Shown here in pieces: positions 5,844 to 21,454 of a stretch of 25,585 nucleotides of DNA. A program made the position numbers and the translations under genes. The DNA is from Rickettsiales bacterium (GTDB lineage: Bacteria > Pseudomonadota > Alphaproteobacteria > Rs-D84), in contig JAIRZE010000023.1 of NCBI GenBank assembly GCA_031267375.1, forward strand, positions 1-25,585, given 5' to 3'. Position 1 is the first letter of the stretch, and each line of letters starts with the position of its first letter. Below the pieces are notes generated by a model. It had not been told where the DNA came from and made no database searches. It was given only the letters and a program-made list of their open reading frames with translations.

Positions 5844-6362
5844 TTACCAAACTTCGCTGTGAATCTTTGCCGGGTCAAAGCCGTCGCGGGATTCAAACGG
5901 AACATCCGAAAATCCAAGAACGACCAAAGCCGCCGGCACTATGTTTTCAGGCAGACTGCACAAGCCGCGGTAATCGGCGATATTTTCAAGCGCGTGCGTC
6001 CAGCAGCTGGCGATTCCCAAATCCGTCGCGCGCAACAGCATATTCTGAATGCACGCGGCCGCGTCCAATTTGCCAAGGTCTTCGTTTTCGCCGTATTCCG
6101 CCGGAATCTTATTCCGGTCATAGCAAACCAAAACTGACACGGGCGATTCAGTGCAGAATCCCGCCCATTCGTAAAACTCTTTTATTTTTGACTTTGCTGC
6201 GGCTGATTTTATTACAATCAGTTCCAGCGGATGAATGCCTTCGCCGCTGGGGGCGGACAGGCCGCTGGATAAAATGAATTGCAGATTGCGATCGGATACG
6301 GGATCATTGCGAAAGCTGCGGATGCTGCGGCGCTTGTAAATATTTCCTGATGTCGGATACAT
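5844..6362 (-). CDS. Nitroreductase-family protein
   Basis: 172 aa. The N-terminal RRSIRSFRNDPVS motif is typical of the FMN nitroreductase fold. RBS AAGGAG. Confidence 0.75.
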   Translation of the reverse strand: MYPTSGNIYKRRSIRSFRNDPVSDRNLQFILSSGLSAPSGEGIHPLELIVIKSAAAKSKIKEFYEWAGFCTESPVSVLVCYDRNKIPAEYGENEDLGKLDAAACIQNMLLRATDLGIASCWTHALENIADYRGLCSLPENIVPAALVVLGFSDVPFESRDGFDPAKIHSEVW

Positions 6363-6366
6363 AATA

Positions 6367-7167: not shown

Positions 7168-7219
7168 CTTTTATACACAATTTTTACCATAATTAATAAC
7201 CTGAATTATTTATATTATT

Positions 7220-7320
7220 TATTTTTAGGCTATTATAATTATTTGAATTTACTGGATTATTTTAACAAAATCGCCTATTTATTAACCTTTTTGCTCTCTT
7301 ATTCCTATTTTTAGGCTATT
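7220..7320. repeat. 15-bp direct repeat pair TATTTTTAGGCTATT
   Basis: Identical copies at 7220-7234 and 7306-7320. The second overlaps the stop codon of the AlbA_2 C-terminal ORF. The surrounding region is a very AT-rich intergenic stretch. Confidence 0.6.
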
Positions 7321-8064
7321 CCTGAATCAGCTCCCAAAATGCAGCGCGCCCCCTTCCTGTTCCTTTTATAATTTTACCAGAAATATCATCAAGTATATTT
7401 CCGATTTTCTTTATTTTTTGATTATCAGAAAGTATATCAGGCATTTTGCTTATCAATAAACCGTTTATATCGCTTCTTGTCGCTTTTTTATATTGTTTAA
7501 GATATCCCACCGTTCTATTTCTTCTCTGGATATTTTTGGATGCCGTGTTGAGAATCCGAATTTAGCTTTTTCTATCGCGGCAATATCTATATCCCCAACT
7601 GTTGCTCCATTGGCTGCCAATCCTGACCAATCCGTTTTTTTTTCGGATAGAATTTCATTTTGCTCCCTATCCGACATAATAAGCAGTTGCTGTCCCAACC
7701 GTTTTAACGGCATTCCCTTGTACCGCAAAATTTCGCCAGTTTCCCTGGATGGAATTTTAATGACGACAACACGCCGGTTTTCAGGAAATATCGTTTTAAT
7801 ATTTACAATTATTTTCTTATTGCTTTTGTCATATATGGATTCTTTCAATCTGACGATATCCTGAAAATCTTCGGTTCCAAATTCCTTTGTTTTTTCATTA
7901 TACCCTATTATTAAATATCCACCTTTCATATTGGCTATGCCGACGCAATAGCCAATGACGCATTTTTTGTCGCCTTCAAGCGGACATACTGCCTCAGATG
8001 CCTTGAATTCAACTATTTCGTTTTCACGATTTTCTATCAAGATTTTTAATTCTTCCGTTGTCAT
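7316..8064 (-). pseudogene. AlbA_2 (Schlafen-like) DNA-binding-domain protein with a C-terminal wHTH-like tail, split by a -1 frameshift
   Basis: ORF 7465..8064 begins MTTEELKILIENRENEIVEFKAS, typical of AlbA_2 / RecG-like putative regulators. ORF 7316..7510 overlaps it in the -1 frame and ends ...GKIIKGTGRGRAAFWELIQE, which is wHTH-like. The two frames meet at A_AAA_AAG (7483-7489). Confidence 0.6.
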
Positions 8065-8067
8065 AAA

Positions 8068-9384
8068 TTATTCTTCCAGATAATCCCTCAGCGCTTGGCC
8101 GGATAACGGCGCGGTTTCCCGGGCCGGCGCAACTATTGAAATTACCCGCGGACTCATAAACACAACCAATTCCGCAAACGGGCTGATCAGCGTTTCAGGC
8201 GCCGTCACAAACGAATGAGTCGGTATTCCGATAAATACATAATTATCCCCCAATGTCGTCGGCAATCTGAAACTGGACAATTCGCCGCCGCTGGTGCGCA
8301 GGACTATTTTTGAATCAACCTTTTTCATTCCCGCAAAGTCGCCGTATTTCGCCGTCGCCCCTATTATCAGATCCGTTTCCAAGCGCTCTTCCTTGGAACA
8401 CTGGCCTATGTCAAAGCGCGATTGCCAATCGTTCGGCAGAACAAAGCTGCCCTGAGAAATCAAGACCACATTTCCCTGCTGGCTTAAAAATTCCTGCAAG
8501 GTTTTGGTATTTATTTCAGGCCCCACAACCAATGCCCGGCCGACAACGCCCGGCACAGACATTTTCACATTGTTTTCACCCAAAGCCGGCAGAAGATTCA
8601 TCCATATTATCGGATTGTCCGTGCGCGGATACACGCGGTATACATCTATATCCCAGGCAACCATATATTTTTTGGAGCCTATGTCCGATACCAGCTTTGC
8701 AACTTCGCGCTCTGTCTGGTAATTTCCCTCAAACACAACCGTCTTGTCAGCCCAGTCCACGATCAGATTCCGCATATCCGACCCGTGCATAGCATCCAGC
8801 AAAGCCATTATTATGGATTGATCTTTCGGCATTTTCATCAGCCACTTTGTGCGATGAAACAAATGAATTTCCCGCGCGGCGTCATCGTATGAATAATAAG
8901 CCTTGCCCATTTTGGTAATCAGATCCAGCGCATCCTGCAAAGATCCGGACTTTATGGAACCAGTTATTTTTCCAGGCAAAGATTCATCTTCTACCACGGC
9001 TATATCCGTGCCGTCCAAAAGCTTGGCCAGCGCATCTGCAACGGTCAGCTTTGTGAATTCAAATTCTTCCACATTGAATCCGGGAAGGGGATCGCCGGCT
9101 TCCAGGCGAACTATCTCCACAGGCTCTTCCGGAACGACGGAAAGAACGGATTGATTGTTCCAGTCAACCTTGCATCGCTTTGGCAAGTCTATGGAAAAGC
9201 GGCGCGCGGCATCGGTGGTCAAAGCGGCTTTTTTTGGAAATATTGGAACAGAGTTTTCATCTATGACCAAATTGTCAACGACATTGACCAGATCATACTG
9301 AGGCCCCTGCTGTTGCTGCTGGGCCAGCGGCTGACAGGCACAAATCAGCAATGATAAATTGGCAATAAGTAAAAGTTTTTTCAT
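8068..9384 (-). CDS. Outer-membrane lipoprotein with secretin-like features (type IVb pilus PilN/BfpB/TcpC-like); orphan
   Basis: Start reassigned to the ATG at 9384 (RBS AAGGA). Lipobox LLICAC. An N0/STN-like segment (LTVADALAKLLDGTDIAVVEDESLPGKITGSIKSGSLQDALDLI) is present. The C-terminal half shows a secretin-like pattern (VAWDIDVYRV...GNVVLISQGSFVLPNDWQSRFDIGQ...LVVFMSPRVI). The family call is from pattern memory only. Confidence 0.4.
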   Translation of the reverse strand: MKKLLLIANLSLLICACQPLAQQQQQGPQYDLVNVVDNLVIDENSVPIFPKKAALTTDAARRFSIDLPKRCKVDWNNQSVLSVVPEEPVEIVRLEAGDPLPGFNVEEFEFTKLTVADALAKLLDGTDIAVVEDESLPGKITGSIKSGSLQDALDLITKMGKAYYSYDDAAREIHLFHRTKWLMKMPKDQSIIMALLDAMHGSDMRNLIVDWADKTVVFEGNYQTEREVAKLVSDIGSKKYMVAWDIDVYRVYPRTDNPIIWMNLLPALGENNVKMSVPGVVGRALVVGPEINTKTLQEFLSQQGNVVLISQGSFVLPNDWQSRFDIGQCSKEERLETDLIIGATAKYGDFAGMKKVDSKIVLRTSGGELSSFRLPTTLGDNYVFIGIPTHSFVTAPETLISPFAELVVFMSPRVISIVAPARETAPLSGQALRDYLEE

Positions 9385-9450
9385 AGCTTTTTCCTTGACT
9401 TTTATACATAAAATACCTATAATATCAACAAATGGGATGGGTACCATCCG

Positions 9451-9477
9451 GCGGCTGAGCAATCAGCCGCTTTTTTT
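9451..9477 (+). terminator. Hairpin plus T7, a perfect intrinsic terminator in the + orientation
   Basis: GCGGCTGA-GCAA-TCAGCCGC followed by TTTTTTT. It sits right at the DUF3800 stop. On the minus strand the hairpin has no U-run, so its orientation is odd relative to the flanking genes. Confidence 0.5.
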
Positions 9478-10180
9478 ATTCCCGGGGCAGAACAATCAGC
9501 CCGTTATCGCCCAGTTTTGTTTCAATTATATTCCACGCGCGGTTAGGCTGCCCCGGTTTCAGCAAATGAATGCCTATCGGCCTTGCGATCAAATCTGCAA
9601 ATTGCAGGCCATACCCGCCGGCAGATTTGACTTGTATTGAAATTCCAAACTCTTTTTCAGCGATTTGTTTGAAATAGTCATACAGCTTTTTATCAACATC
9701 CCTATATTCGTATAATGAATAAGCCCGCGATTCAAATGTTATAGTAGTATAGTTAAAATCATTCAGTTCTTGCAAGTATGATTTTATCGCAGACAAACCA
9801 AATTTCACAGCAGATTCATACAAATCATCTGGCAGATTCTTTGGGACGGCCTTGTCAAAAGCAACCGCTATGACTTTATATTGTATTTCCGACATCAATT
9901 GGTTCATATCGGACATAAAAGATTCCCTGGCCGAGGCATTTCTTAAAAACTCAAATTGCTTGACCTGTTTTCTGATGTCAACTTCGTGGAATATTGTATT
10001 CACATCTGGAAAATATTTCAGTTTAAGAGCTGCAAACTTTGGCAGCAATTTATTGCAGTATTCGGATTTTTCTATAATCATAAAAGCCAGAACAAACATT
10101 GGATATCCGTTTGGATTCAATGTGCGCAGATTTTGATCGCCGGACTCGTCAACAAAAACAAGATAATTTGAATTTTTCAT
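9476..10180 (-). CDS. DUF3800-family protein
   Basis: 234 aa. N-terminal YLVFVDESGD motif and the downstream GLQFADLIARPIG motif are characteristic of DUF3800. AT-rich. Confidence 0.7.
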   Translation of the reverse strand: MKNSNYLVFVDESGDQNLRTLNPNGYPMFVLAFMIIEKSEYCNKLLPKFAALKLKYFPDVNTIFHEVDIRKQVKQFEFLRNASARESFMSDMNQLMSEIQYKVIAVAFDKAVPKNLPDDLYESAVKFGLSAIKSYLQELNDFNYTTITFESRAYSLYEYRDVDKKLYDYFKQIAEKEFGISIQVKSAGGYGLQFADLIARPIGIHLLKPGQPNRAWNIIETKLGDNGLIVLPRE

Positions 10181-10637: not shown

Positions 10638-11027
10638 ATGAAATTAAAATTGCTAATTGCTAATTGCTCGTTGCTAATTCTTGTGGCTTGTTCGTCCCCG
10701 AACGGCGGCAGCATTGACAACGCCACGGTCCTGAACTGGGAGAACGAGGCGGTAACGACCGAGCAATTCGTAAAAGATCACAAAGTCTGCCTGGGGGTGG
10801 ATCGCCCCGCCCATATGCCGCGGTCGCGCCTAGCAAAGCTGATCGCCCCGAATCAAAGCGGGCAAATGCCGGACTGGGACGGATTATGGGTTACTTTTCA
10901 GTCAAACGAGTATTCTGATGTCGGTCAAAGGTCTTTGATGTCCGTTCCGCCGAATTCCACATCCAAATCAGTTGGCGCATACAGAAAATGTATGTTCAGA
11001 AAGGGCTATCTGCTGCGGGCAATGTAA
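10638..11027 (+). CDS. Lipoprotein, function unknown
   Basis: Start reassigned to MKLKLLIANCSLLILVAC (lipobox LVAC). 129 aa. The signal-peptide coding region contains tandem heptamers (AATTGCT)x3 plus one degenerate copy. Confidence 0.65.
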   Translation: MKLKLLIANCSLLILVACSSPNGGSIDNATVLNWENEAVTTEQFVKDHKVCLGVDRPAHMPRSRLAKLIAPNQSGQMPDWDGLWVTFQSNEYSDVGQRSLMSVPPNSTSKSVGAYRKCMFRKGYLLRAM

Positions 11028-11032
11028 AAAAA

Positions 11033-11884
11033 ATGAAGCCGCAAAAACTTCTCTTTATAACCAGCAATGCCACCCGCGGGCTGTACCTTTTCGGACGGCA
11101 GCTGCAAAAATTGGGCTTTGAAATAACAATCGCCGCGCCGGCTGGATCCCAGCACTTCTGGCTTTGGGGCGATTTCATCCCATTGCGCAAAGTTTTTAAG
11201 TTTCTATTTTCCACACGGAAATTCAAAGTTGCAACCGGCACTAAAATTTTTGCATTGGACAATGCGGCGGCGCGGTTTGCAACGCGCGCGAAATTAAAGT
11301 TTTCCGAAGCAGAGTTAAACTTTGGACTGGACCCTGTCGTATGGAATCCGAATGCTGCGACAATCGCCGCCCAGCAGAGAATTCTGAAAGAATTCGGAAT
11401 CGCGCCGCATCAAAAGCTTATCTCGGTTATCAGTCCGCTTGGGGCCAGCTTGGACGAATTAATTTCCGCAGTTATTTCTTTGCCACGCAATGATTTTGTA
11501 ATCGCGCTGACGGGATCCGCCGCGCCGCGCCGGGCAAAAAAGATTCTGAAAAAGATTGCGGATTCCGGCGCCGCGGACCGTATAATCTGCACCGGGGATA
11601 TTCGTGATATGCCGTCGTTCTTGCGGGCATCGTTTGCAATATTTTCTTTGGGCGAGCATCAGGAACAATTATTAAAATCCGCCGTATCAATGGGCCGGCC
11701 GACAGTCTGGGCTGAAAACGATTATGATATAAAGCCGAATATAATATTGAAAGATGATTTGATAAAGACTCTGAATACGGCATTGGATTTGCCGGGGGAT
11801 AAATTGGAAGCTTTTCAAAAAGCGAATCTGTCCGCCGCCAAGGGCTTTTCAATTGAAAAGACGGTGAAAGAATTTCTGGCTTAG
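11033..11884 (+). CDS. Glycosyltransferase-like (GT-B fold) protein, uncertain
   Basis: Start reassigned to MKPQKLLFITSN. Rossmann-like N-terminus (LLFITSNATRGLYLFGRQLQKLGFEITIAAP), and a C-terminal half with ...LTGSAAPRR...ICTGDIRDMPSFL. Weak similarity by eye only. Confidence 0.35.
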   Translation: MKPQKLLFITSNATRGLYLFGRQLQKLGFEITIAAPAGSQHFWLWGDFIPLRKVFKFLFSTRKFKVATGTKIFALDNAAARFATRAKLKFSEAELNFGLDPVVWNPNAATIAAQQRILKEFGIAPHQKLISVISPLGASLDELISAVISLPRNDFVIALTGSAAPRRAKKILKKIADSGAADRIICTGDIRDMPSFLRASFAIFSLGEHQEQLLKSAVSMGRPTVWAENDYDIKPNIILKDDLIKTLNTALDLPGDKLEAFQKANLSAAKGFSIEKTVKEFLA

Positions 11885-11932: not shown

Positions 11933-12622
11933 ATGAAGAAATCCTTTTGGTTTTGGCTGTGCTTTGGGCTGGGCGTCGTTTTTGCGACCTATTTTTCAGC
12001 GCGTATTGCTATGACGCTTATGGGGCGCGGAAATCCCGCAATTATAAAAAACATTTCCATTCGCGCGGCAAATGGAAGCGCGGATATGGACGCCATAACC
12101 GCCGCCGCGGCCATTTCACCCGGAACAAAGACTTATTCGGTAAGTCTGGACGAACTGCGCGCGCGGATAAACAGCGTTCCGGATATAGAGTCTGCCAGCG
12201 TCCGGCGCCTGGGCAACGGAAATTTAGCTATTCAGGTAAAAGTCCGCAATGCTGTGGCGGTTTGGACCGACGGACAGGCTTTTTATCCCCTGACCCGCGA
12301 CGGACTGATTATAAAACGGCCGACGGATACGCGACCGGAACGACTGGTGCTTTTCAAAGGCCCGCTGCCGGACGATATATCGGCAATTGTGCGGGCATTG
12401 CGCGGCGCACCCGGCGTGGCGGCGGCCGGCGATTATTTGGAATGGCAAGAGATGCGGCGCTGGAATCTGCATACAAAGTCCGGGGCAATTATTTATCTGC
12501 CCGAAGAAAAACCTGAAAATGCGATCTCGGCCTTGGCGGTGCTGGCGCAAAAACACCAATTGCTTTCCCGCGAAATAGCAATAATAGATATGCGCGACAA
12601 CGCAAGGGTGCTGGTAAAATAG
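11933..12622 (+). CDS. ftsQ: Cell division protein FtsQ
   Basis: 229 aa. N-terminal TM helix, then a POTRA-like block (ISIRAANGSADMDAITAAAAISPGTKTYSVSLDELRARINSVPDIESASVRRLGNGNLAIQV). An FtsA-like gene lies downstream. Confidence 0.8.
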   Translation: MKKSFWFWLCFGLGVVFATYFSARIAMTLMGRGNPAIIKNISIRAANGSADMDAITAAAAISPGTKTYSVSLDELRARINSVPDIESASVRRLGNGNLAIQVKVRNAVAVWTDGQAFYPLTRDGLIIKRPTDTRPERLVLFKGPLPDDISAIVRALRGAPGVAAAGDYLEWQEMRRWNLHTKSGAIIYLPEEKPENAISALAVLAQKHQLLSREIAIIDMRDNARVLVK

Positions 12623-12688
12623 AGTAGAGAGTAAAGAGTAGAGAGTTAAGCTTAATATCTCTACTCTCTAATCTCTACTCTCTACTCT
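12621..12688. repeat. Imperfect long palindrome built of AGAGTAN heptamers, centred on AAGCTT
   Basis: Left arm AGAGTAGAGAGTAAAGAGTAGAGAGTT, right arm AATATCTCTACTCTCTAATCTCTACTCTCTACTCT. It fills the whole ftsQ-ftsA spacer and ends 4 nt before the ATG at 12693. Confidence 0.8.
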
Positions 12689-12692
12689 GAAA

Positions 12693-14456
12693 ATGAATCT
12701 GCTTGACTCATCTTTTCTGTGCTTGGATTTGGGCAGCTCTGCGGTGCGCGGGCTGGCGTGCCGCGTGCAGAACGGGCTGATAACAAAATCCGCGGCATTT
12801 TCCGCGCAAAGCTATGATACTGTTTTCGCAATAAAGTCTGTTATTGATGAACTGGAAAAGCAAATCGGAAGAAGTCTGGATCGGGCATTTATAACCGGAA
12901 ATTTCGGAAACTATGACTTTAATATCATAACGCGGACAAGCAATTGGCCCAAAGAGCACAAGATAACCCAGGGCGATATTCTGGAACAAACAACGCGGGA
13001 ACCCGCGACGGACGGCTTTGCGCCCCTGCATATAATTCCGCTGCGGTTTGATACAGCCGGCGCCAGAAATCTTGCGAATCCGGCGGGGCAAATTTCCACG
13101 GAACTGACATCCGTATTCGGCGCGATAAGCTGTGATTCCGCGCAAATGCAGAACGCGGCGGCGATTCTGCGTGCCGCGCATTTGCAGAGCGAGGGGTTTT
13201 ACGACGGCGCCTATTTGCTGAGCCAGATGACGGAAACGCCGGCGGCATTTCTGGATCTGGGCGCGGAATTTTCAAGCCTCTCCGTATGGACGAAACGCGG
13301 GCCCGTGTTTTTCAAAAAGATAAATATCGGTCAGGATGCGATAACAAATGCCATAGCGGACGAATTTGACATAAGCCGCGCGGAAGCGCTGCGGATAAAG
13401 CACAGCGCGGTCCGCACCACTATTTCGGAAATGGACAGGTTTACACCCGCGGACGCGAATTATGATTTTTCCAGGGCCGATTTGAATTCCGTCGCGCTGG
13501 AAATATTGAATGAAATAGGGAATATGGCAAAGGAAGAATTGGCGCCGTTTTTAGAAAAATACGAAATAGACAAATTGTACCTGTCCGGCGGCGGATCAGA
13601 GCTGGCGGGGTCCGCAGACTTTTTCAAAACAAAGTTGAATGCTAATATTGAAATCCTGGGCGCTGGCGCCGCGGTCTTTGCATTGAAAGAATTCGTCTGG
13701 AATGCGGAATCTTATCGCGTGAAATCCTATCTGGCGCGGCGCGCGCGTTGGAAATCCCGCATATCCGCGCTTGCGAATATATTCGCGCGCAAAAAGAAAA
13801 AACGGCGCCCGCATTTGGTGCCGATAATGCCCAGTGTCGCGTCCTTTGATATGAACGATCCCGCGACATATATTATGTTTGCGAATGCCGGGATAGGGGC
13901 GCTGCATATTGACATTATGGACGGATTTTTCGTTGACAAGATTACTGGCGGAATAGAAGAATTGAGGGCGATCCGCGCGCGGACGCGTATGCGCCTGAAT
14001 GTGCATCTGATGACGGAAAGCCCGGTGTCTTGGGCAACTGCGGCGGCAGAGGCCGGGGCGGATACTATCATAGTTTCAACCGGAACAGCCGGAGCACGGG
14101 CGGCGCTGCGGAAAATAAAGGAATTGGGAAAGCGGGCGGGAATCGCCCTGAACCCGGAATCGCCGGCGGCGATATTAAAGCCCGTATTGCGCGAAATTGA
14201 CGAAGTCCTGGTTATGTCGGTCCGTCCGGGGGCATCGGGCCAAAAGTTTATGGAAGAAGTACTGCCGAAAATATCGGCGCTTGCAAACACGCGGAAAAAA
14301 TACGGCCTGAAATATAGGATAAGTGTTGACGGCGGAATAAACGCTGAAACAGCACGGATGTGCTGGGCGGCGGGCGCGGATATGCTGGCCAGCGAAACAT
14401 ACCTGGCGCACGCGCCTGACTTTGCATTGGCGGTGGAATCGCTTCTGCCGAAATAA
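12693..14456 (+). CDS. Fusion ORF: divergent FtsA-like actin-fold protein (about aa 1-370) plus ribulose-phosphate 3-epimerase (about aa 375-587)
   Basis: N-terminal part: LCLDLGSSAVRG, FLDLGAEFSSLSVW and LYLSGGGSELAG (actin/FtsA phosphate and adenosine motifs), then a basic amphipathic tail WKSRISALANIFARKKKKRRP. C-terminal part: PSVASFD, HIDIMDGFFV, NVHLM, NPESP, VMSVRPGASGQKF, VDGGIN and AGADML (Rpe signature blocks). There is no stop between the two parts. An in-frame ATG lies at 13827. Confidence 0.75.
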   Translation: MNLLDSSFLCLDLGSSAVRGLACRVQNGLITKSAAFSAQSYDTVFAIKSVIDELEKQIGRSLDRAFITGNFGNYDFNIITRTSNWPKEHKITQGDILEQTTREPATDGFAPLHIIPLRFDTAGARNLANPAGQISTELTSVFGAISCDSAQMQNAAAILRAAHLQSEGFYDGAYLLSQMTETPAAFLDLGAEFSSLSVWTKRGPVFFKKINIGQDAITNAIADEFDISRAEALRIKHSAVRTTISEMDRFTPADANYDFSRADLNSVALEILNEIGNMAKEELAPFLEKYEIDKLYLSGGGSELAGSADFFKTKLNANIEILGAGAAVFALKEFVWNAESYRVKSYLARRARWKSRISALANIFARKKKKRRPHLVPIMPSVASFDMNDPATYIMFANAGIGALHIDIMDGFFVDKITGGIEELRAIRARTRMRLNVHLMTESPVSWATAAAEAGADTIIVSTGTAGARAALRKIKELGKRAGIALNPESPAAILKPVLREIDEVLVMSVRPGASGQKFMEEVLPKISALANTRKKYGLKYRISVDGGINAETARMCWAAGADMLASETYLAHAPDFALAVESLLPK

Positions 14457-14514
14457 TATTCTATCTCCGCTCTTCTATCTTCGCTCTGCGCTCTCTGTTA
14501 AGAATCCCTGCCTA

Positions 14515-14554: not shown

Positions 14555-14929
14555 ATGAAATGGAGAATCGCCGTGAACAAAACAGCTGTTATGAAATTGT
14601 CGGACCTGTTGCGCCTGACGCCTTATCAATCTTACATACTGGAACAAAACGGGGAAAAGTACAATCTGGACCGGCTGATAAAAAAAGGCGTGGTGCTTTA
14701 CGCTCCGTACCGCTGCACCGCCAGCCGCGGGATTGGCGATTGCATTGCGAAAGTATTTCGCGGGCCGCGCGCGGACCTGATCGGCAGCGACAGGATTCTG
14801 GTGCGCGACCAGCGCGGGATAAAGCTTTTTGCGACGGGATTTTTCAGCGCGCGAGACGGGCGAGGAAAATACTACGCGGATTCAAACGGCGCGCGGATAG
14901 AGAAAAGAATCTTTGACAGGATTGTGTAA
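14555..14929 (+). CDS. Hypothetical protein (124 aa)
   Basis: ORF with a promoter immediately upstream. No recognisable motif. Its stop abuts the stop of the convergent gene with 0 nt between them. Confidence 0.5.
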   Translation: MKWRIAVNKTAVMKLSDLLRLTPYQSYILEQNGEKYNLDRLIKKGVVLYAPYRCTASRGIGDCIAKVFRGPRADLIGSDRILVRDQRGIKLFATGFFSARDGRGKYYADSNGARIEKRIFDRIV

Positions 14930-15898
14930 TCACATCAGCCGCAATATTTTCAAACTTATCATCATCTCGGAAATATATTTCGCCAGATACATATCGCGCA
15001 AAGAATCAAACTGGCTGCATCCGGATTCCAGCTCGCTCATTTTCTTCATAAATATTTCGTTCCGGCGAGTTGGCTCAAAATATGATCGCAGATTTTCAAA
15101 ATATTCCGCGCCCATAATATCCAGGGCATTAATATTATCAAACTGAAACACCTGTTCCATAACCCGGTTCCACCCGATCGGCGCGGCCGCATTTCTGCCG
15201 CGCAAGGCAGCTTGCATTTCAGCCGCAGTGTCCGTTAATTTTTGCTTTGTGTTGTTTGGCAATGTTTGCGAGTAAATATTAATCTGGCTTTCGCCGTCCG
15301 AAAGATCGCGCGCGGATTCGTCAAGGATCAGCTGCAATTCCGCCCGCGATATTTCCGCGCCGATTTCATTATTATCCAGCCAGTCGGCGTAAGCGCCGTA
15401 AAACCGGCTGGAATAAATCAGCGCGACAGAATGTTCGGATTCTGAAATTCTCTTTTTTTCCGATCCGATAATTTCCCCGGCAAATGCTTGCTGCAAAGAT
15501 CCTGTTTCCAAATATATTTTCCGCCGCCACAGCAATTCGGACGCGCGCGCCGCTATTTCATCATAAAACACAAAGTCTGAAATCTGCGCAGATGTCAATC
15601 CTTGCAAAGAAATTTGATAATCCGCAAAATGTTTTGACTCGTGGATTTTTATTCCGGGAATCCGCTGATTCAGCTTGTCTATCGCGCCGGATAATCCGGG
15701 CCTGGCATCCGGCGCGGGCGTGAAGAATTTTATAAAAATTGATTTTTTTGAATGATTGTACCCGCCTTGGTTTTGCGCCAATTCGCTTTCATTGGATATA
15801 GGAATTGTGTCAATGCGGACATCCTGGCCGGCGGCGCGCGGCGCGCCGAACCCCAGCGCCGCCAAGCCAAGCGCGAACAGGCGCTTTTTATGAAACAT
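14930..15898 (-). CDS. Secreted HExxH (gluzincin-like) protein; paralog of 89..1258
   Basis: 322 aa. Signal peptide MFHKKRLFALGLAALGFGAPRAAG. HESKH motif with DEIAARASELL about 20 aa downstream. Its start overlaps the upstream Cys-rich gene by 11 nt. Confidence 0.6.
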   Translation of the reverse strand: MFHKKRLFALGLAALGFGAPRAAGQDVRIDTIPISNESELAQNQGGYNHSKKSIFIKFFTPAPDARPGLSGAIDKLNQRIPGIKIHESKHFADYQISLQGLTSAQISDFVFYDEIAARASELLWRRKIYLETGSLQQAFAGEIIGSEKKRISESEHSVALIYSSRFYGAYADWLDNNEIGAEISRAELQLILDESARDLSDGESQINIYSQTLPNNTKQKLTDTAAEMQAALRGRNAAAPIGWNRVMEQVFQFDNINALDIMGAEYFENLRSYFEPTRRNEIFMKKMSELESGCSQFDSLRDMYLAKYISEMMISLKILRLM

Positions 15899-16307
15899 AG
15901 CTGAAAGACCCGCTAGTATCGGATCCCGTAGAGGGGCAATTGCATTCGCAGGTGCAGGCGGAATTTGTGGAACACAAAGCGCTTACCGGCGTCCCTGGCG
16001 CGCATCCTGTGTTGGTGCAGGTCGGATTAGCCTCGCAAGCGCAGGTTGATGTGCCTTGATTTACCGCGTGATAACCGGTATCGCAGGTGCAGGTGTATTG
16101 CGGATAGTCTGACGCAGTGCCAGATGAACACGGACACATCATTCCGTTTGAGTCTTTTGTGCCGCAGGCGACATAGGCTTCAGTTCTTCTTTTACCGCCG
16201 GTAATAGTTATTGTTGAGCAGCAATCTATGCAACTTATGGCTGCTGCATATGCGTCGCAGGCTGCAAATATTCCAAACATAAATAATACAAAGGATTTGA
16301 TTTTCAT
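15888..16307 (-). CDS. Secreted Cys/Thr/Ser-rich protein
   Basis: Start reassigned to MKIKSFVLFMFGIFAACDAYA (RBS AGGGGGA). The mature part of about 117 aa has 17 Cys by my count, many in CxC motifs (CPC, CTC, CAC, CTCECNC). Confidence 0.65.
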   Translation of the reverse strand: MKIKSFVLFMFGIFAACDAYAAAISCIDCCSTITITGGKRRTEAYVACGTKDSNGMMCPCSSGTASDYPQYTCTCDTGYHAVNQGTSTCACEANPTCTNTGCAPGTPVSALCSTNSACTCECNCPSTGSDTSGSFSYVS

Positions 16308-16343
16308 TTTTCTTTTTCCCCCTGTCCTGCAAAATTCCCTGAA

Positions 16344-16401
16344 CGAACACGATGTGTTCGTCATCCCGACCTTCGTCGGGATGACGCCGCGGGCCGCGGC
16401 G
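16344..16401. repeat. Cluster of three abutting hairpins, including a REP-like 12-bp-stem element
   Basis: CGAACAC-GAT-GTGTTCG (16344-16360). CGTCATCCCGAC-CTTC-GTCGGGATGACG (16359-16386). CGCCGCG-GGC-CGCGGCG (16385-16401). The middle hairpin is homologous, in reverse orientation, to 21947-21974. Confidence 0.85.
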
Positions 16402-16423
16402 TTTATGTAAAAAGTTAATTTTC

Positions 16424-16452
16424 GTAAAAGAAAACCGCCAAGGAATTGGCGG
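16424..16452 (-). terminator. Intrinsic terminator
   Basis: CCGCCAA-UUCC-UUGGCGG followed by UUUUCUUUU on the minus strand. Confidence 0.65.
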
Positions 16453-16564
16453 TCAGGGAGTTAGAAAAATCATAAATATCAAATGACCCCGTCAGCTTTC
16501 GTCTGACCTTTACAGGCGAAACTGTTTTATAACTGACGGCCCCCCGACCCGGTCGGAGGTGCAT

Positions 16565-16585
16565 AAAAAAAGACGCATCCGCGCC
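16565..16585 (-). terminator. Intrinsic terminator
   Basis: GGCGC-GGAU-GCGUC followed by U7 on the minus strand (A-run 16565-16571 on +). Confidence 0.65.
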
Positions 16586-16714
16586 ATCTGTTATGCGGAT
16601 TCAATACAGCTTTTCTGTACTGGATATTTTCAGGATTTTCTAAGTCCTTGAACACACATCCCTGTGGATTCATTCAAAACTTTATCTGTTTTTTATGGAA
16701 ATGTAAAGGAGAAA

Positions 16715-16839
16715 AGTGGTCAGGGGTCAGGGGTTAGTGGTCAGCAGTATGATTGTAAAAGAACAATTTTCTTAAAAAATAAAATTGCTCTTCATTTGCG
16801 ACATACTGCTGACCACTAACCACTGCCCCCTGACCACTA
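16715..16839. repeat. 37-bp inverted repeat (35/37 match) built of GGTCAGG-like heptamers, flanking a 50-bp AT-rich spacer
   Basis: The left arm (16715-16751, AGTGGTCAGGGGTCAGGGGTTAGTGGTCAGCAGTATG) matches the reverse complement of 16802-16838. It begins 2 nt after the AsmA-like stop codon. Confidence 0.85.
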
Positions 16840-16840
16840 A

Positions 16841-19327
16841 TTAAAACTTGTCGTGGCTGGAAACAAAATCGCGCAGGTAATCCGGATCAAAGCTTATCAT
16901 TATTTCAGACAACGAATATCCGCGCCGGCCGTTCGCATCCACAGATAATGCTATCGGTTGCGGCGCCGGCGAAGTTCCGCGCAAAATCAGATTCATCTGC
17001 GCCGTCATACGACCGTTAGCAAACTGCAAATTGCCGCCCGCATCGCAATGCGGCAATGACATTTGAAACGGAACCGTTGTCGCGAATCTTCCGTTTTCAT
17101 ATTTTCCGATAACGCGCAATTTTTTCAAGCGCGTCCGCCCGCCGTCCAATGCGGCCGCCAAAGCGTATTCCGCGTTCAGCTTTGTAATGTCTTCCGCGCC
17201 CGCGTAAAATTTATCCAGCCCCAGGCCCGCGACTTCACCGCCGTCAAAAGACAAGTCCAAATCGCCGGAAAGATTGTGCCATATATCATCCGCTATCTTT
17301 CCGCTGGTGGCCAAAGAAATATCAGCTGTCAAATATCCGCCGGATATATTCAATCCATTTGCAGAATTTACCAGCAAGTCGTGCAGGACGAACTTGTTCA
17401 ATTGCACGACGGCGGAATATTCATTTTTATTCTTTTTTATATCGGCCAATAAACTGCCGTTTTTTGAATCGGTTATTGAAAAACTTTGCGAGCCATCACG
17501 CAATGAATACGCAAAATTATCAAACTCCATTCCACTGAATATAACACTGTCCGCAAGCAATGAAATGCGAATGCCGGAAAGCTCCAAAGGTGCCAGAATC
17601 GGCGCGTTTGAAAGGAATTGCTGCTCTTCGTAATCATCCAGATAATCCTGGCTGATAAAAGAATCCAGATTCAGCAGATCTGTTTTCAGCGATATGCTCG
17701 CGCCATTGGCAGAGCCTTCAAAAATATGCCCTGCGATTTCTATTTTCAAGTCCGCGATATTGCCGTTTTTATATTTTCCGGAAATTTCCACCGGCATACC
17801 GGATTTCAAAAACCTGGTGTCTATGTTTATTTCAAAGGCTTTCAGCAGGCGCAGCGCATCTTGGTGAGCGAACGAGAATTTCAGCCCGTCAAAATTCAGA
17901 CTCCAATCCGCGGTCTGGAAATAAATGCTTTTTATTTCGTTGTCCGCAAAAACCTCGCGCAGGGCGCCGCGATTCACAAGCATTTCTTTTGACACCAGCG
18001 GAAAATTCAAAATGCCAAGGCCCTCTTCCAAAGATATATTTTCGGAATTATAGTTTATGACATACCGGCCGCCTTTGATAATCATAGTTCCATTTGCAAA
18101 CGGCGTCGTAAAGGCAACTTTTCCGTCGCGCTTTCCAAAATAATCGCTGAACTGGCCGGGCGCAGGCAAAGCGTTGCCGTTAAAAATCATATCGTATGAT
18201 TTTTTATTTACGGACAGCGCGCCGGTTGCTGAAAATGATTGATAATCTTTTAATATAAATTCTTCGCATACGAATTCTTCCGGCGTTCCGGAAAACAAGC
18301 ATTCGTATTCCGGCGTAGAAAGCATAATGCGCGACGCGCCGTCCGCGCCGATCTTTCCGCCGATGGCTTTCATATCATCTGCGGCAATTTTGTTAATTAT
18401 GACTTCATCACCCTGCCCCGCCGCATTTATTTGAATACGCGAAAAGTCGCGGCCTGCGAATTTCAAGCGGCCGCTTAAATCCAAATCGTATTGCGAGTTA
18501 TTGAAGACAGACGCATCCGCCAATAAAAAGGACAAATCAAAATTTATATTCCGCGCGGATAATATTATGCGACGCGAACCGTCTTCATACAAATTAATTT
18601 CGCCGGAAAATTCGCCGCCGGCCGCATTACCTGCAATATCATAAAAACGAAATCCGTATTTTCCGTCCCATTCAAAACTCATATTAACTTTTACCGCGCC
18701 GCGAATTTTTGGGGTTTCCACCGCGAACCAGTCATTAAAGCCGTCGGTGTTTATCGCAAAAGTCCCGCGCGCGCTGCCGTCCGAAAACAAGTGTCCGGAT
18801 ATTTCCAAATTCTCGTTCGCATTGCGGATTTGAAATTCGTCGCCCTGGCTTTGAAAGTCATATCTGTGCTCGCTGGTGCGGACGGTGCCGCGCAGAATTC
18901 CGCCGGCCAATATGCCGTCCGTTATTTCATAATCCTTGCCCAGAAAGCTGATGATGGAATTTCGTATCGTTATTTCCAAATTATTTGCAGGCGGCGACAA
19001 TTCCGAAACCTGCAAGCGCGCGCCACTGACCGTTATTTTATCCGGCAATCTTAACGCGCCCAGATCAAAAACAGAAGACAACGGCACCGCGAAAACGACA
19101 GAGTCCACCGTTCCGTTCGGCAGCTTTACATCGTGGATGGCGATTGTCGCGCGACCCAGCAAACTGAAATGCACGGGGCCGTCAATCTGAATTCCCAATA
19201 CATTTTCTATCTGGGGGCGCAGGCGGTCAAGATTTATAAAAGGCGGAATAATGACGACGCAAAGCGCTAACGCGCCGGCGAGTCCCGTAAAAGACCAAAA
19301 AATCCTGCGTTTATAGCGCGGCTTCAT
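16841..19327 (-). CDS. AsmA-family outer-membrane biogenesis protein
   Basis: Start reassigned to MKPRYKRRIFWSFTGLAGALALCVVIIPPFINLDRLRPQIENVL, an AsmA-type N-terminal anchor. It is long and predicted beta-rich, with a C-terminal LSGDLDLSFDGGEVAGLGLDKFY block. Confidence 0.6.
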   Translation of the reverse strand: MKPRYKRRIFWSFTGLAGALALCVVIIPPFINLDRLRPQIENVLGIQIDGPVHFSLLGRATIAIHDVKLPNGTVDSVVFAVPLSSVFDLGALRLPDKITVSGARLQVSELSPPANNLEITIRNSIISFLGKDYEITDGILAGGILRGTVRTSEHRYDFQSQGDEFQIRNANENLEISGHLFSDGSARGTFAINTDGFNDWFAVETPKIRGAVKVNMSFEWDGKYGFRFYDIAGNAAGGEFSGEINLYEDGSRRIILSARNINFDLSFLLADASVFNNSQYDLDLSGRLKFAGRDFSRIQINAAGQGDEVIINKIAADDMKAIGGKIGADGASRIMLSTPEYECLFSGTPEEFVCEEFILKDYQSFSATGALSVNKKSYDMIFNGNALPAPGQFSDYFGKRDGKVAFTTPFANGTMIIKGGRYVINYNSENISLEEGLGILNFPLVSKEMLVNRGALREVFADNEIKSIYFQTADWSLNFDGLKFSFAHQDALRLLKAFEINIDTRFLKSGMPVEISGKYKNGNIADLKIEIAGHIFEGSANGASISLKTDLLNLDSFISQDYLDDYEEQQFLSNAPILAPLELSGIRISLLADSVIFSGMEFDNFAYSLRDGSQSFSITDSKNGSLLADIKKNKNEYSAVVQLNKFVLHDLLVNSANGLNISGGYLTADISLATSGKIADDIWHNLSGDLDLSFDGGEVAGLGLDKFYAGAEDITKLNAEYALAAALDGGRTRLKKLRVIGKYENGRFATTVPFQMSLPHCDAGGNLQFANGRMTAQMNLILRGTSPAPQPIALSVDANGRRGYSLSEIMISFDPDYLRDFVSSHDKF

Positions 19328-19341
19328 AATTTCATTCTCTC

Positions 19342-19369
19342 TTGTAATTTGATTATAATAGATTATATT
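19342..19369 (+). promoter_or_regulatory. Promoter TTGTAA-16nt-TATATT upstream of uvrB
   Basis: -35 at 19342-19347 and -10 at 19364-19369. The GTG start at 19377 lies 7 nt after the -10 box. Confidence 0.45.
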
Positions 19370-19376
19370 TGTTCTT

Positions 19377-21449: not shown

Positions 21450-21454
21450 CGGCT

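What the first reader, a model, noticed from the sequence alone, without database searches (positions are those of the whole stretch)
12693..14456. Single ORF fusing a divergent FtsA-like protein to ribulose-phosphate 3-epimerase, in a dcw remnant without ftsZ
Seen in the sequence: directly after ftsQ, a 587-aa ORF carries actin-fold FtsA-like motifs. These are followed by a basic amphipathic segment (WKSRISALANIFARKKKKRRP) that looks like the FtsA membrane-targeting helix. With no stop codon in between, a complete Rpe domain follows (HIDIMDGFFV, NVHLM, VMSVRPGASGQKF, VDGGIN).

The FtsA-like part is short (about 370 aa) and divergent. The next gene downstream is an unrelated 124-aa ORF and then convergent genes, so ftsZ does not follow as it does in the usual ftsQ-ftsA-ftsZ order.

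Inference: one possibility is a genuine divisome-metabolic fusion that would tether Rpe to the membrane. The other is that rpe is translated separately from the in-frame ATG at 13827 after loss of the ftsA stop codon. I do not recognise either arrangement as described.
Basis: partly seen in the sequence, partly recalled or inferred. Interest (0 to 1): 0.65.

Follow-up and report, generated by a model that had tools for sequence, protein, structure and literature searches.

The report
Conserved FtsA–Rpe fusion protein
A whole lineage of small-genome gut Alphaproteobacteria makes its cell-division protein FtsA and the sugar-phosphate enzyme Rpe as a single protein joined just after FtsA's membrane-binding helix, an arrangement that is real, under selection, and apparently undescribed.

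Summary
Window 12693-14456 (+) is one 587-aa ORF directly after ftsQ.

- **Residues 1-338:** a divergent but genuine FtsA. Foldseek's top 19 PDB hits are all FtsA, and an HMM built from 96 unfused FtsAs scores E = 7e-55.
- **Residues 353-367:** an amphipathic basic helix that aligns with the C-terminal membrane-targeting helix of unfused FtsAs.
- **Residues 368-376:** a disordered Lys/Arg-rich tether.
- **Residues 377-587:** an Rpe barrel with all metal and catalytic residues intact.

It is not an artefact. At least 80 GTDB species carry the same continuous ORF, directly after ftsQ in 81 of 82 loci. These are Candidatus Enterousia (order Rs-D84) and allied uncultured "Rickettsiales/Alphaproteobacteria" MAGs. 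More divergent fusions, down to 24% identity in the FtsA half, sit in the same position. Median dN/dS is 0.11 for FtsA, 0.34 for the linker and 0.07 for Rpe.

The proposed internal start is not conserved: ATG in 34 of 72 loci, TTA in 15. No ftsZ lies within ±10 kb in any locus, and its location elsewhere could not be determined.

Databases name the protein only "ribulose-phosphate 3-epimerase", and no paper mentions the fusion. Why the two functions are coupled remains inference. I rate it a new variant of known kinds, of moderate interest.

The parts
11933..12622 (+). ftsQ, the upstream gene, probably co-transcribed with the fusion
   Evidence: Pfam POTRA_1 and FtsQ_DivIB_C both pass their cut-offs. 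An FtsQ homologue lies immediately upstream on the same strand in 81 of 82 related loci. It overlaps the fusion start by 4 nt in L085 and L086.
12693..14456 (+). the whole FtsA-MTS-Rpe fusion ORF (587 aa plus the TAA stop)
   Evidence: More than 120 full-length homologues of about 590 aa have the same Pfam pair. 80 GTDB species representatives match residues 1-585/587.
12693..13706 (+). FtsA core (residues 1-338): actin fold with the 1C/SHS2 insertion and nucleotide-binding motifs
   Evidence: Foldseek's top 19 hits are FtsA structures such as 1e4g, 4a2a and 7q6i (TM 0.65-0.74 normalised to the target), while PilM first appears at rank 44. The unfused-FtsA HMM gives E 6.7e-55 and aligns the 1C signature LHIIPLRFDTAGARNLANPAGQ. 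D12, G14, D188, G190, G299 and G300 are invariant in 70 of 70 sequences. Median dN/dS is 0.108.
13710..13793 (+). long helix (residues 340-367); its second half (353-367, nt 13749-13793, RWKSRISALANIFAR) is the retained FtsA membrane-targeting amphipathic helix, now internal
   Evidence: AlphaFold2 predicts helix 340-367. The segment aligns with the extreme C-terminal targeting helix of unfused FtsAs such as ..FFRQMTSWFKENL and ..LVRKFISWFKDNF. The unfused-FtsA HMM runs through its last positions (406 of 410) on the fusion P0144, residues 384-395. The median hydrophobic moment is 0.64, and the hydrophobic face is formed by W353, I360, I363 and F364.
13794..13820 (+). disordered polybasic tether (residues 368-376, KKKRRPHLV)
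   Evidence: pLDDT is below 50 for residues 366-373. Net charge of residues 350-376 is +6 to +12 across 70 sequences. The stretch from residue 336 to 380 is 44 aa in 56 sequences and 45 aa in 14. Median dN/dS of the linker is 0.34.
   Evidence: The homologous codon is ATG in 34, TTG in 19, TTA in 15 and CTG in 4 of 72 loci. The residue is Leu in 38 and Met in 32 of 70 non-redundant sequences.
13821..14453 (+). ribulose-phosphate 3-epimerase (beta/alpha)8 barrel (residues 377-587)
   Evidence: PF00834 E 1e-46. Sequence match to 2fli, E 1.7e-40. Foldseek TM 0.81-0.90 normalised to the target, rmsd about 2 A, against Rpe structures. H405, D407, M409, D410, H438, M440, M508 and D546 are invariant in 70 of 70. 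Median dN/dS is 0.074.

Best explanation
This is a genuine, vertically inherited in-frame gene fusion that makes one polypeptide of about 64 kDa.

Anatomy, in order:
- a divergent but complete FtsA (subdomains 1A, 1C, 2A, 2B, with nucleotide-binding motifs intact);
- FtsA's own amphipathic membrane-targeting helix, kept in its ancestral place but now internal;
- a disordered Lys/Arg-rich tether of about 9 residues;
- an Rpe barrel with an intact catalytic site.

Origin (inferred): in the common ancestor of the Rs-D84/Enterousia lineage and allied reduced-genome Alphaproteobacteria, an rpe gene came to lie directly 3' of ftsA. Loss of the ftsA stop then joined the two genes a few codons after the targeting helix. 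ftsZ is no longer adjacent.

How it most likely works (inferred):
- The FtsA part acts in the divisome, as the partner of FtsQ and presumably of an FtsZ encoded elsewhere.
- The internal amphipathic helix plus the polybasic stretch hold the protein on the inner face of the membrane.
- The Rpe barrel, only about 10 residues from that helix, therefore works as a membrane-proximal epimerase made in a fixed 1:1 ratio with FtsA.
- Stand-alone Rpes are dimers or hexamers (general knowledge of the family). The barrel may therefore also bridge FtsA molecules.

The architecture, its conservation and the selection on it are shown. Membrane binding, enzymatic activity, oligomeric state and any physiological coupling are inferred.
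For: - **Continuous ORF with both domains:**
- **Same architecture elsewhere:** more than 120 protein clusters and 80 GTDB species at 47-56% identity. All related loci with a detectable match keep a continuous frame of at least 590 codons.
- **Wider family:** fusions down to 24% identity in the FtsA half still end in an Rpe domain.
- **Synteny:** ftsQ is immediately upstream in 81 of 82 loci, in a conserved neighbourhood.
- **Selection:** median dN/dS is 0.108 for FtsA and 0.074 for Rpe over 76 close pairs.
- **FtsA identity:** Foldseek; unfused-FtsA HMM at E 7e-55; P0144 passes Pfam FtsA (62.8 bits) and SHS2_FTSA (44.4 bits).
- **Targeting-helix homology:**
- **Linker properties:** amphipathic, charged and of nearly fixed length.
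- **Rpe catalytic residues invariant:**
- **No unfused member of the family was found.** The 430-aa and 487-aa hits are truncated or frameshifted fusions.
- **Nearest unfused FtsAs sit in ordinary ftsA-ftsZ or ddl-ftsQ-ftsA clusters:**
- **Pentose phosphate pathway context:** PMC12306168 reports the non-oxidative branch, apart from transaldolase, in most Rs-D84 genomes. That fits an Rpe that is in use.
Against: - There is no protein-level evidence. Nothing here shows that the 64-kDa species accumulates uncleaved, binds membrane or has either activity.
- The window protein misses the curated FtsA thresholds: PF14450 scores 28.3 against 31.8, and TIGR01174 scores 52 against 176. It also misses the Rpe equivalog threshold: TIGR01163 scores 166 against 212.6.
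- The near-universal Rpe motif DGxFVPN reads DGF(Y/F)VD(R/K) in the whole family, and that loop is modelled with low confidence.
- The window's own copy has Glu568-Thr569 where 68 of 70 relatives, and 2fli, have Gly-Ser.
- pTM is only 0.59, so no fixed interface between the two halves is predicted.
- I could not verify that ftsZ exists in these genomes, or that the fusion is their only ftsA and only rpe.
Confidence: 0.72

Rival explanations
1. One ORF gives two proteins by processing. The full-length product is cut in the disordered Lys/Arg-rich tether. This would regenerate a canonical FtsA ending in its membrane-targeting helix and release a free cytoplasmic Rpe. The fusion would then serve only co-expression and stoichiometry.
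For: The tether directly after the targeting helix is the one low-confidence, disordered stretch in the model (pLDDT below 50 for residues 366-373). It is the least conserved part of the protein (conservation 0.45, dN/dS 0.34). Its basic character is nevertheless kept in all 70 sequences. In characterised FtsAs the targeting helix is C-terminal (PMC4252000, PMC8897712).
Against: No protease site or protease is identifiable. The stretch from residue 336 to 380 is nearly fixed in length (44 or 45 aa in all 70 sequences), which suggests a geometric constraint rather than a mere cleavable spacer. A polybasic stretch next to an amphipathic helix is equally well explained as extra affinity for anionic lipids.
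Confidence: 0.1
2. Rpe is translated separately from an internal start at the junction (the ATG at 13827). The upstream frame would be only incidentally open after loss of the ftsA stop.
For: An in-frame ATG sits exactly where stand-alone Rpes begin (..IMPS.. against canonical ..IAPSIL..). The lack of a Shine-Dalgarno motif is not informative, because the true start also lacks one in 71 of 72 loci.
Against: The homologous codon is ATG in only 34 of 72 loci, and it is TTA (not a start codon) in 15 and CTG in 4. The open frame across the junction is maintained in every related locus over divergence down to 24% identity. That would not be expected if read-through were incidental.
Confidence: 0.05
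3. The Rpe half is no longer an enzyme. It would be a structural or oligomerising module, or a sugar-phosphate sensor, that modulates FtsA assembly, for example by replacing a missing divisome partner.
For: The family-wide change from FVPN to (F/Y)VD(R/K) lies in an otherwise near-universal motif. TIGR01163 is below its equivalog cut-off. The window copy carries Gly568Glu at the position aligned with the Gly-Ser of 2fli.
Against: All four metal and catalytic residues and the Met cage are invariant in 70 of 70 sequences. dN/dS for this half is the lowest of the three regions, at 0.074. The NCBIfam Rpe subfamily cut-off is passed. Rs-D84 genomes are reported to keep the other non-oxidative pentose phosphate steps, which need an Rpe (PMC12306168).
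Confidence: 0.08
4. The ORF is an assembly or sequencing artefact, or a decaying pseudogene created by a recent indel.
For: None beyond the a priori possibility. The window comes from a single 25.7-kb contig.
Against: Independent assemblies from many studies and hosts, including chromosome-level records OZ007020.1 and OZ246409.1, show the same frame. Both halves are under strong purifying selection.
Confidence: 0.01
5. The N-terminal half is not the divisome FtsA but another actin-like ATPase, such as a PilM-like protein, with an unrelated role.
For: Against PDB sequences the best hit is PilM 2ych (E 1.8e-4), marginally ahead of FtsA 7q6f (E 2.6e-4). Pfam PilM_2 scores 24.3 bits.
Against: PilM_2 is below its cut-off of 27. 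Foldseek ranks 19 FtsA chains first, with PilM at rank 44 and TM 0.53. The unfused-FtsA HMM gives E 7e-55. The gene always follows ftsQ, and ftsI-ftsQ in L083. No pilN, pilO or pilP neighbours are present. A targeting helix of FtsA type is present.
Confidence: 0.04

Closest known systems
Canonical FtsA (for example T. maritima 1E4G/4A2A, Vibrio 7Q6F, alphaproteobacterial FtsAs of about 418 aa such as P0154 and P0157)
   Same: It has the same fold, including the 1C/SHS2 insertion, the nucleotide-binding motifs and the S12-S13 segment. It has the same gene position after ftsQ. It also has a homologous amphipathic membrane-targeting helix after the core.
   Different: Identity to solved FtsAs is only about 15-17%, and it falls below curated HMM cut-offs. 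The FtsA part is about 50 residues shorter. The targeting helix is internal rather than C-terminal, and a 211-residue enzyme follows it. ftsZ is not the next gene.
Stand-alone ribulose-phosphate 3-epimerase (for example S. pyogenes 2FLI, Synechocystis 1TQJ, human 3OVP)
   Same: It has the same (beta/alpha)8 barrel (TM up to 0.90), at 30-37% identity. The His/Asp metal ligands, the catalytic Asp pair and the Met cage are conserved.
   Different: It has no free N-terminus, because beta-strand 1 starts about 10 residues after a membrane-binding helix. The motif FVPN is replaced by (F/Y)VD(R/K), and PGFGGQ by PGA(A/S)GQ. It scores below the TIGR01163 equivalog cut-off.
PilM-PilN fusion proteins (for example P0249, 554 aa)
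   Same: This is another FtsA-like actin-fold ATPase carrying a C-terminal fusion partner.
   Different: There the fused partner is the protein's own physical interaction partner in the same machine. Here the partner is a central-metabolism enzyme with no known link to the divisome.
Metabolic enzymes that regulate division in trans (GdhZ and KidO in Caulobacter, UgtP in B. subtilis, OpgH in E. coli); recalled from my own knowledge, not tested here
   Same: These are conceptual precedents for a physical link between a carbon-metabolism enzyme and the FtsZ/FtsA apparatus. Two of them are in Alphaproteobacteria.
   Different: Those are separate proteins that bind FtsZ reversibly as nutrient sensors. 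Here the enzyme is covalently and permanently joined to FtsA, and no regulatory role has been shown.
Fusions of dcw-cluster genes in reduced genomes (for example MurC-Ddl in Chlamydia); recalled from my own knowledge
   Same: A fusion of adjacent genes became fixed across a reduced-genome lineage in the cell-division and cell-wall gene neighbourhood.
   Different: MurC and Ddl act in the same pathway. FtsA and Rpe do not.

Membership tests
FtsA | Actin/ASKHA fold with the FtsA-specific 1C (SHS2) subdomain | tested here: met
   The AlphaFold2 model has pLDDT 88.5. Foldseek's top 19 hits are FtsA chains (TM 0.65-0.74 normalised to the target, ~380 aligned columns). The 1C signature aligns to the unfused-FtsA HMM. 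SHS2_FTSA passes Pfam's cut-off in family members P0144, P0143 and P0146.
FtsA | Score above curated family thresholds (Pfam PF14450 gathering threshold 31.8; NCBIfam TIGR01174 cut-off 175.85) | tested here: not met
   The window protein scores 28.3 bits and 52.3 bits. Other fusion-family members pass PF14450: P0144 62.8, P0123 47.5, P0143 44.7. A custom HMM of 96 unfused FtsAs gives 179 bits, E 6.7e-55.
FtsA | Nucleotide-binding motifs (phosphate 1 DxG, phosphate 2 DxG, adenosine GGG) | tested here: met
   D12, G14, D188, G190, G299 and G300 are invariant in 70 of 70 sequences, and G301 in 64 of 70. Phosphate 2 reads D(F/L)GAEFT rather than DIGGGTT.
FtsA | Amphipathic membrane-targeting helix after the core | tested here: met
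   Residues 353-367 align with the C-terminal targeting helix of unfused FtsAs. The HMM tail maps onto the fusion P0144. The median hydrophobic moment is 0.64 and the net charge is +6 to +12. Actual membrane binding was not testable.
FtsA | The targeting helix lies at the extreme C-terminus (PMC4252000, PMC8897712) | tested here: not met
   220 further residues (tether plus Rpe) follow it in every member of the family.
FtsA | Gene lies immediately downstream of ftsQ in the dcw region | tested here: met
   This holds in 81 of 82 related loci and in the window. L083 has ftsI-ftsQ-fusion.
FtsA | ftsZ follows, and the protein binds the FtsZ C-terminal peptide through subdomain 2B | tested here: not met
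   For adjacency, tblastn with two FtsZ queries found nothing in 1.62 Mb of fusion-bearing sequence, and there was no tubulin signature. Binding to FtsZ, and even the presence of ftsZ elsewhere in these genomes, could not be tested with these tools.
Ribulose-phosphate 3-epimerase (Rpe) | Score above curated thresholds | tested here: met
   PF00834 scores 159 bits (gathering threshold 21.1). NCBIfam subfamily PRK05581.1-4 scores 176.2 (cut-off 165). The equivalog TIGR01163 scores 166.4, below its cut-off of 212.6.
Ribulose-phosphate 3-epimerase (Rpe) | (beta/alpha)8 barrel with His-Asp-His-Asp metal site and catalytic Asp pair | tested here: met
   TM is 0.90 to 2fli. H405, D407, H438 and D546 align to the 2fli motifs HID, HLM and VDGG and are invariant in 70 of 70. 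The assignment of these residues as ligands rests on my knowledge of published Rpe structures.
Ribulose-phosphate 3-epimerase (Rpe) | Conserved DGxFVPN motif after beta-strand 2 | tested here: not met
   The family has DGF(Y/F)VD(R/K), whereas 2fli and 1tqj have DGQFVPN and DGRFVPN. The loop at 412-418 has pLDDT below 50.
Ribulose-phosphate 3-epimerase (Rpe) | Gly-Ser at the end of beta-strand 8 (phosphate-binding, from my knowledge of the family) | tested here: not met
   The window has E568-T569. 68 of 70 relatives, and 2fli, have G-S. The feature is therefore met by the family but not by this particular copy.
Ribulose-phosphate 3-epimerase (Rpe) | Ru5P to Xu5P epimerase activity | not testable with these tools
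   This needs an enzyme assay or complementation.
PilM (type IV pilus actin-like ATPase) | Pfam PilM_2 above its cut-off, pilN/O/P/Q neighbours, no targeting helix | tested here: not met
   PilM_2 scores 24.3 bits against a cut-off of 27. PilM is Foldseek rank 44 with TM 0.53. No pil genes appear in any neighbourhood.

The most novel reading that the evidence does not exclude
The Rpe barrel is an integral working part of the division machinery in this lineage rather than a passenger.

It sits one short tether away from FtsA's membrane helix. Its dimer or hexamer interfaces could pair or cluster FtsA filaments, a job done by partner proteins in model bacteria. Its occupancy by pentose phosphates could gate FtsA assembly. 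That would amount to a hard-wired metabolic checkpoint on cytokinesis in bacteria with genomes of about 0.7-1 Mb.

A more extreme version, also not excluded, is that these genomes lack ftsZ altogether and the fusion organises division without it.
Probability: 0.15. Interest if true: 0.85.

Novelty: new variant of a known kind. Interest (0 to 1): 0.55.

Why it matters
FtsA's membrane-targeting helix is described as a C-terminal element. It also acts as a switch for polymerisation (PMC4252000, PMC8897712). Here a whole bacterial lineage has kept that helix internal, with a folded 23-kDa enzyme hanging from it, across very deep sequence divergence. That makes it a natural experiment on three questions:
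- whether the helix needs a free C-terminus;
- how much bulk FtsA filaments tolerate at the membrane face;
- whether central carbon metabolism can be physically wired to cytokinesis.

There is also a practical consequence. Public annotation names these proteins only "ribulose-phosphate 3-epimerase" or "hypothetical protein". Automated surveys will therefore score Rs-D84/Enterousia genomes as lacking FtsA, which would distort reconstructions of divisome loss in reduced genomes.

The fusion is also a clean synapomorphy that could help delimit this poorly resolved group of uncultured Alphaproteobacteria.

Tried and rejected
1. **Locating ftsZ.**
   - A motif scan for GGGTG[ST]G and tblastn with two real FtsZs found nothing in the window or in 87 fusion-bearing loci (1.62 Mb).
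   - I then used the FtsZ next to the nearest unfused FtsA (L088, a Holosporales MAG) as a probe against the 5.8-billion-protein set. None of the 120 listed hits was attributed to Enterousia or Rs-D84.
   - The two candidates I followed (P0330, P0354) were ordinary Alphaproteobacteria with a full murG-murC-murB-ddl-ftsQ-ftsA-ftsZ cluster. This was a dead end, and whole-genome access is needed.
2. **Second copies.** I looked for a second ftsA or rpe near the fusion and found none within ±10 kb.
3. **Pre-fusion state.** I searched for a genome with separate ftsA and rpe genes side by side and found none. Every strong hit to the FtsA half is a fusion or a fragment of one. The nearest unfused FtsAs are followed by ftsZ or a transposase.
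4. **Shine-Dalgarno test for an internal start.** This was uninformative, because the true start also lacks such a motif in 71 of 72 loci.
5. **Apparent S12-S13 deletion.** It seemed to be missing in the MAFFT alignment. The HMM alignment shows the segment is retained, only about 5 residues shorter than the unfused consensus, and highly conserved. I dropped the idea of a lost polymerisation interface.
6. **Literature.** Five searches with different wording found no paper on the fusion. The 2023 Enterousia paper (doi 10.1134/S0026261723603780) is not held, and the mSphere 2025 paper has no supplements held.
7. **PADLOC scan of the window-specific inserted genes.** There were no hits.
8. **Model coordinates.** They are not exposed, so I could not examine how the 340-367 helix packs.
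Full report
**1. The observation**

The window has a single 587-codon ORF at 12693..14456 (+), with an ATG start, a TAA stop and no internal stop. It begins 70 nt after ftsQ (11933..12622). Pfam and NCBIfam place a ribulose-phosphate 3-epimerase domain at residues 378-567 (PF00834, E 1e-46; PRK05581.1-4, 176 bits against a cut-off of 165). They give a weaker FtsA signal over residues 43-332 (PF14450, 28.3 bits against a gathering threshold of 31.8; TIGR01174, E 4.5e-14 but 52 bits against 176). ftsQ is confirmed by POTRA_1 and FtsQ_DivIB_C.

**2. Not an artefact**

A search of 5.8 billion proteins returned more than 120 clusters of about 590 aa. They are 49-56% identical over the full length and carry the same Pfam pair. 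A scan of one genome per GTDB species found 356 related stretches. The 80 best all match residues 1-585/587. They come from MAGs named Candidatus Enterousia, "Rickettsiales bacterium" or "Alphaproteobacteria bacterium". The isolate names point to animal faeces and gut contents (ruminants, horse, human gut collections), with some from non-gut sources, and one related contig comes from a JGI metagenome. Two are chromosome-level records (OZ007020.1, 958 kb; OZ246409.1, 716 kb).

In 72 loci a strict pattern recovered the whole ORF. In 10 more, a stop-free frame of at least 591 codons contains the junction, and only my N-terminal pattern failed. PMC12306168 places Enterousia in GTDB order Rs-D84. 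This is a group of uncultured gut Alphaproteobacteria with genomes mostly below 1 Mb.

**3. The N-terminal half is FtsA**

- The AlphaFold2 model, built on a 23-sequence alignment, has mean pLDDT 88.5.
- Foldseek against the PDB puts 19 FtsA chains first (T. maritima, Vibrio, Xenorhabdus, E. coli, S. aureus; TM 0.65-0.74 normalised to the target over about 380 columns). PilM first appears at rank 44 with TM 0.53.
- An HMM I built from 96 unfused FtsAs found by exhaustive search scores the window at E 6.7e-55, with HMM positions 8-351 aligned to residues 7-321. All 80 fusion targets score E 1.8e-23 or better.
- That alignment includes the 1C-domain signature (LHIIPLRFDTAGARNLANPAGQ against lhaipleYslDgekgikdPigmvG) and the S12-S13 segment.
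- The nucleotide-binding positions D12, G14, D188, G190, G299 and G300 are invariant in 70 non-redundant family members.
- The gene follows ftsQ on the same strand in 81 of 82 loci.

**4. The family is wider than Enterousia**

Exhaustive HMMER with residues 1-350 against 1.84 billion representatives gave 36 hits at E 1e-10 or better. Every full-length hit stronger than about 1e-13 is 542-623 aa long, and the rest are fragments. Canonical-length FtsAs of 400-440 aa begin only at E of about 1e-12.

All the long hits I tested end in an Rpe domain, down to 24% identity in the FtsA half: P0127, P0133, P0134, P0139, P0141, P0143, P0144, P0146, P0147, P0152 and P0156. The 430-aa and 487-aa hits are a truncated and a frameshifted fusion. 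P0144 (623 aa) has a much more canonical FtsA half, with PF14450 at 62.8 bits and SHS2_FTSA at 44.4 bits. It lies in an ftsI-ftsQ-fusion-rpmB arrangement. P0143, P0141 and P0133 share the window's neighbourhood: ABC-lolCE, three small ORFs, sometimes a glycosyltransferase, then ftsQ and the fusion. In two of them ftsQ overlaps the fusion start by 4 nt.

The nearest unfused FtsAs sit in ordinary ftsA-ftsZ or ftsW-murG-murC-murB-ddl-ftsQ-ftsA clusters. I infer a single ancient fusion that was inherited vertically.

**5. The junction**

Between the FtsA core and the Rpe barrel the family has: `Y(I/L)AR..(R/K)W`, about 10 variable residues, `(I/L)F.(R/K)(K/R).K.(K/R)..F(I/V)P(I/V)(M/L)PS`.

- The stretch from residue 336 to 380 is 44 aa in 56 sequences and 45 aa in 14.
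- The net charge of residues 350-376 is +6 to +12.
- The best 15-residue hydrophobic moment has a median of 0.64.
- AlphaFold2 predicts one long helix at 340-367, followed by a disordered basic stretch (pLDDT below 50 for 366-373).

In a joint alignment the amphipathic segment lines up with the extreme C-terminus of unfused FtsAs (..FFRQMTSWFKENL..LFSKMNTWVRDNL..LVRKFISWFKDNF). The fusion P0144 reads ..RWVQIKNWFEKHL there. The unfused-FtsA HMM aligns through position 406 of 410 onto P0144 residues 384-395, about 15 residues before its Rpe barrel begins. According to PMC4252000 and PMC8897712, FtsA consists of a core, a flexible linker and an essential C-terminal amphipathic targeting helix. 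That helix also regulates polymerisation. In this family the helix is kept in place, and the enzyme is attached just after it.

**6. The Rpe half**

It matches S. pyogenes Rpe (2fli) at E 1.7e-40 and superposes at TM 0.90. H405, D407, M409, D410, H438, M440, M508 and D546 are invariant in 70 of 70 sequences.

Two departures stand out. The whole family has (F/Y)VD(R/K) where 2fli and 1tqj have FVPN. The window alone has E568-T569 where 68 of 70 relatives and 2fli have G-S. The equivalog model TIGR01163 is below its cut-off. The fold and the catalytic apparatus are therefore those of Rpe, but exact substrate specificity, and full activity of the window's allele, are not established.

**7. Selection and the internal-start idea**

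Nei-Gojobori dN/dS over 76 close pairs has a median of 0.108 for the FtsA half, 0.339 for the linker and 0.074 for the Rpe half. Neither half is decaying.

The codon homologous to ATG 13827 is ATG in 34, TTG in 19, TTA in 15 and CTG in 4 of 72 loci. A conserved internal start is therefore unlikely. Shine-Dalgarno motifs are absent both there and at the true start, so they do not help decide.

**8. ftsZ**

There is no tubulin signature and no tblastn hit to two FtsZ queries anywhere in the window or in 87 fusion-bearing loci, 1.62 Mb in total. The statement that ftsZ does not follow is therefore true for the whole family.

I could not determine whether ftsZ exists elsewhere in these genomes. 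A probe with a Holosporales FtsZ returned only other lineages. The same limit applies to a possible second ftsA or rpe beyond ±10 kb. PMC12306168 reports that most Rs-D84 genomes have the non-oxidative pentose phosphate steps except transaldolase. That is consistent with this protein being their working Rpe, but the link is my inference.

**9. Mechanism**

*Shown:* one conserved reading frame, an FtsA fold, a homologous amphipathic helix, an Rpe fold with an intact catalytic site, purifying selection on both halves, and conserved synteny with ftsQ.

*Inferred:*
- The protein works as FtsA at the membrane and the divisome.
- The internal helix plus the polybasic stretch bind the inner leaflet.
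- The Rpe barrel therefore operates close to the membrane, in a 1:1 ratio with FtsA.
- Because stand-alone Rpes are dimers or hexamers (general knowledge of the family), the barrel may also bridge FtsA molecules.

The pTM of 0.59, despite high pLDDT, suggests there is no fixed interface between the two halves. Alternatives are cleavage in the basic tether, internal initiation, and a non-catalytic Rpe module. I rank these lower in the rival-explanations section.

**10. Comparison and novelty**

Both parts belong to well-known families. What is new is the architecture and the internal position of the targeting helix. Five literature searches found nothing on it. Public records call the protein "ribulose-phosphate 3-epimerase" or "hypothetical protein".

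I classify it as a new variant of a known kind and score interest at 0.55. It is robust, clade-wide and surprising for FtsA biology. However, the organisms are uncultured, and no functional consequence has yet been demonstrated.

Noticed in passing
window 12621-12688; also 16715-16838 and 1890-1930 (weaker: 20695-20796, inside uvrB): These are intergenic hairpins whose arms are tandem heptamers, with a different heptamer at each site. The one at 12621-12688, (AGAGTAG)n facing (TCTCTAC)n, has 26-nt arms. It folds at -36.4 kcal/mol (z = -6.4), fills the ftsQ-fusion spacer and ends 4 nt before the fusion ATG. In other loci ftsQ abuts or overlaps the fusion, so this hairpin is a lineage-specific insertion, and it could affect translation of the fusion. 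The 16715-16838 hairpin has 37-nt arms that are 95% complementary. A tandem 14-mer (14459-14487) follows the fusion stop.
   Followed up: partly
window 14555-21862: Relative to the common gene order in the clade (fusion, tsaE(-), uvrB(-), asmA-like(+), ORF124(-), aspS), the window carries an inversion of the tsaE-uvrB-asmA-ORF124 block, with one breakpoint at the 3' end of the fusion. Two window-specific ORFs are inserted: a 322-aa ORF at 14930-15898, and a Cys-rich 158-aa ORF at 15888-16364 that starts with a hydrophobic stretch. The 124-aa ORF is conserved in 42 of 82 loci.
   Followed up: partly
window 14394-14399 (codons 568-569): The window's Rpe reads Glu-Thr where 68 of 70 relatives and the 2fli structure read Gly-Ser, at the end of beta-strand 8. 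From my knowledge of the family this is a phosphate-binding position. It may be a real allele with altered activity, or a sequencing error.
   Followed up: partly
window 5844-10180: Window-specific genes are inserted between the conserved lolCE-ABC pair and ftsQ. They are a nitroreductase (5844-6362), a 266-aa ORF (6367-7167), a Schlafen/AlbA_2 protein (7465-8064) and a DUF3800 protein (9476-10180). They have no counterpart in the 82 related loci, apart from one hit for the nitroreductase, and none matches PADLOC defence models.
   Followed up: partly
L011 (OZ246409.1) and L078 (CAZUED010000001.1): Two public MAG records that carry this alphaproteobacterial fusion and its neighbourhood are titled 'uncultured Muribaculaceae bacterium' (Bacteroidota). 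That looks like a taxonomic mislabel in the records.
   Followed up: no
fusion family, public records (P0007-P0069, P0141, P0143, P0271): All named members are annotated 'ribulose-phosphate 3-epimerase' or 'hypothetical protein', and the FtsA half is never named. In P0134, P0139, P0146 and P0156, Pfam's FtsA model (PF14450) no longer detects it at all. Automated surveys would score these genomes as FtsA-less.
   Followed up: yes
window 10988-11884; L085 8345-9274; L086 8265-9185: A GT1-type glycosyltransferase-like ORF of about 300 aa sits directly upstream of ftsQ, in the slot where ddl lies in ordinary dcw clusters. It occurs in the window and in two very divergent fusion lineages, but tblastn at E 1e-5 did not detect it in the Enterousia loci. 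Its role is unknown.
   Followed up: no
72 related loci, 20 nt upstream of the fusion start: Only 1 of 72 loci has a Shine-Dalgarno-like 4-mer in the -18 to -5 region before the fusion's start codon. Translation initiation of this gene in the clade seems not to rely on a Shine-Dalgarno motif.
   Followed up: no
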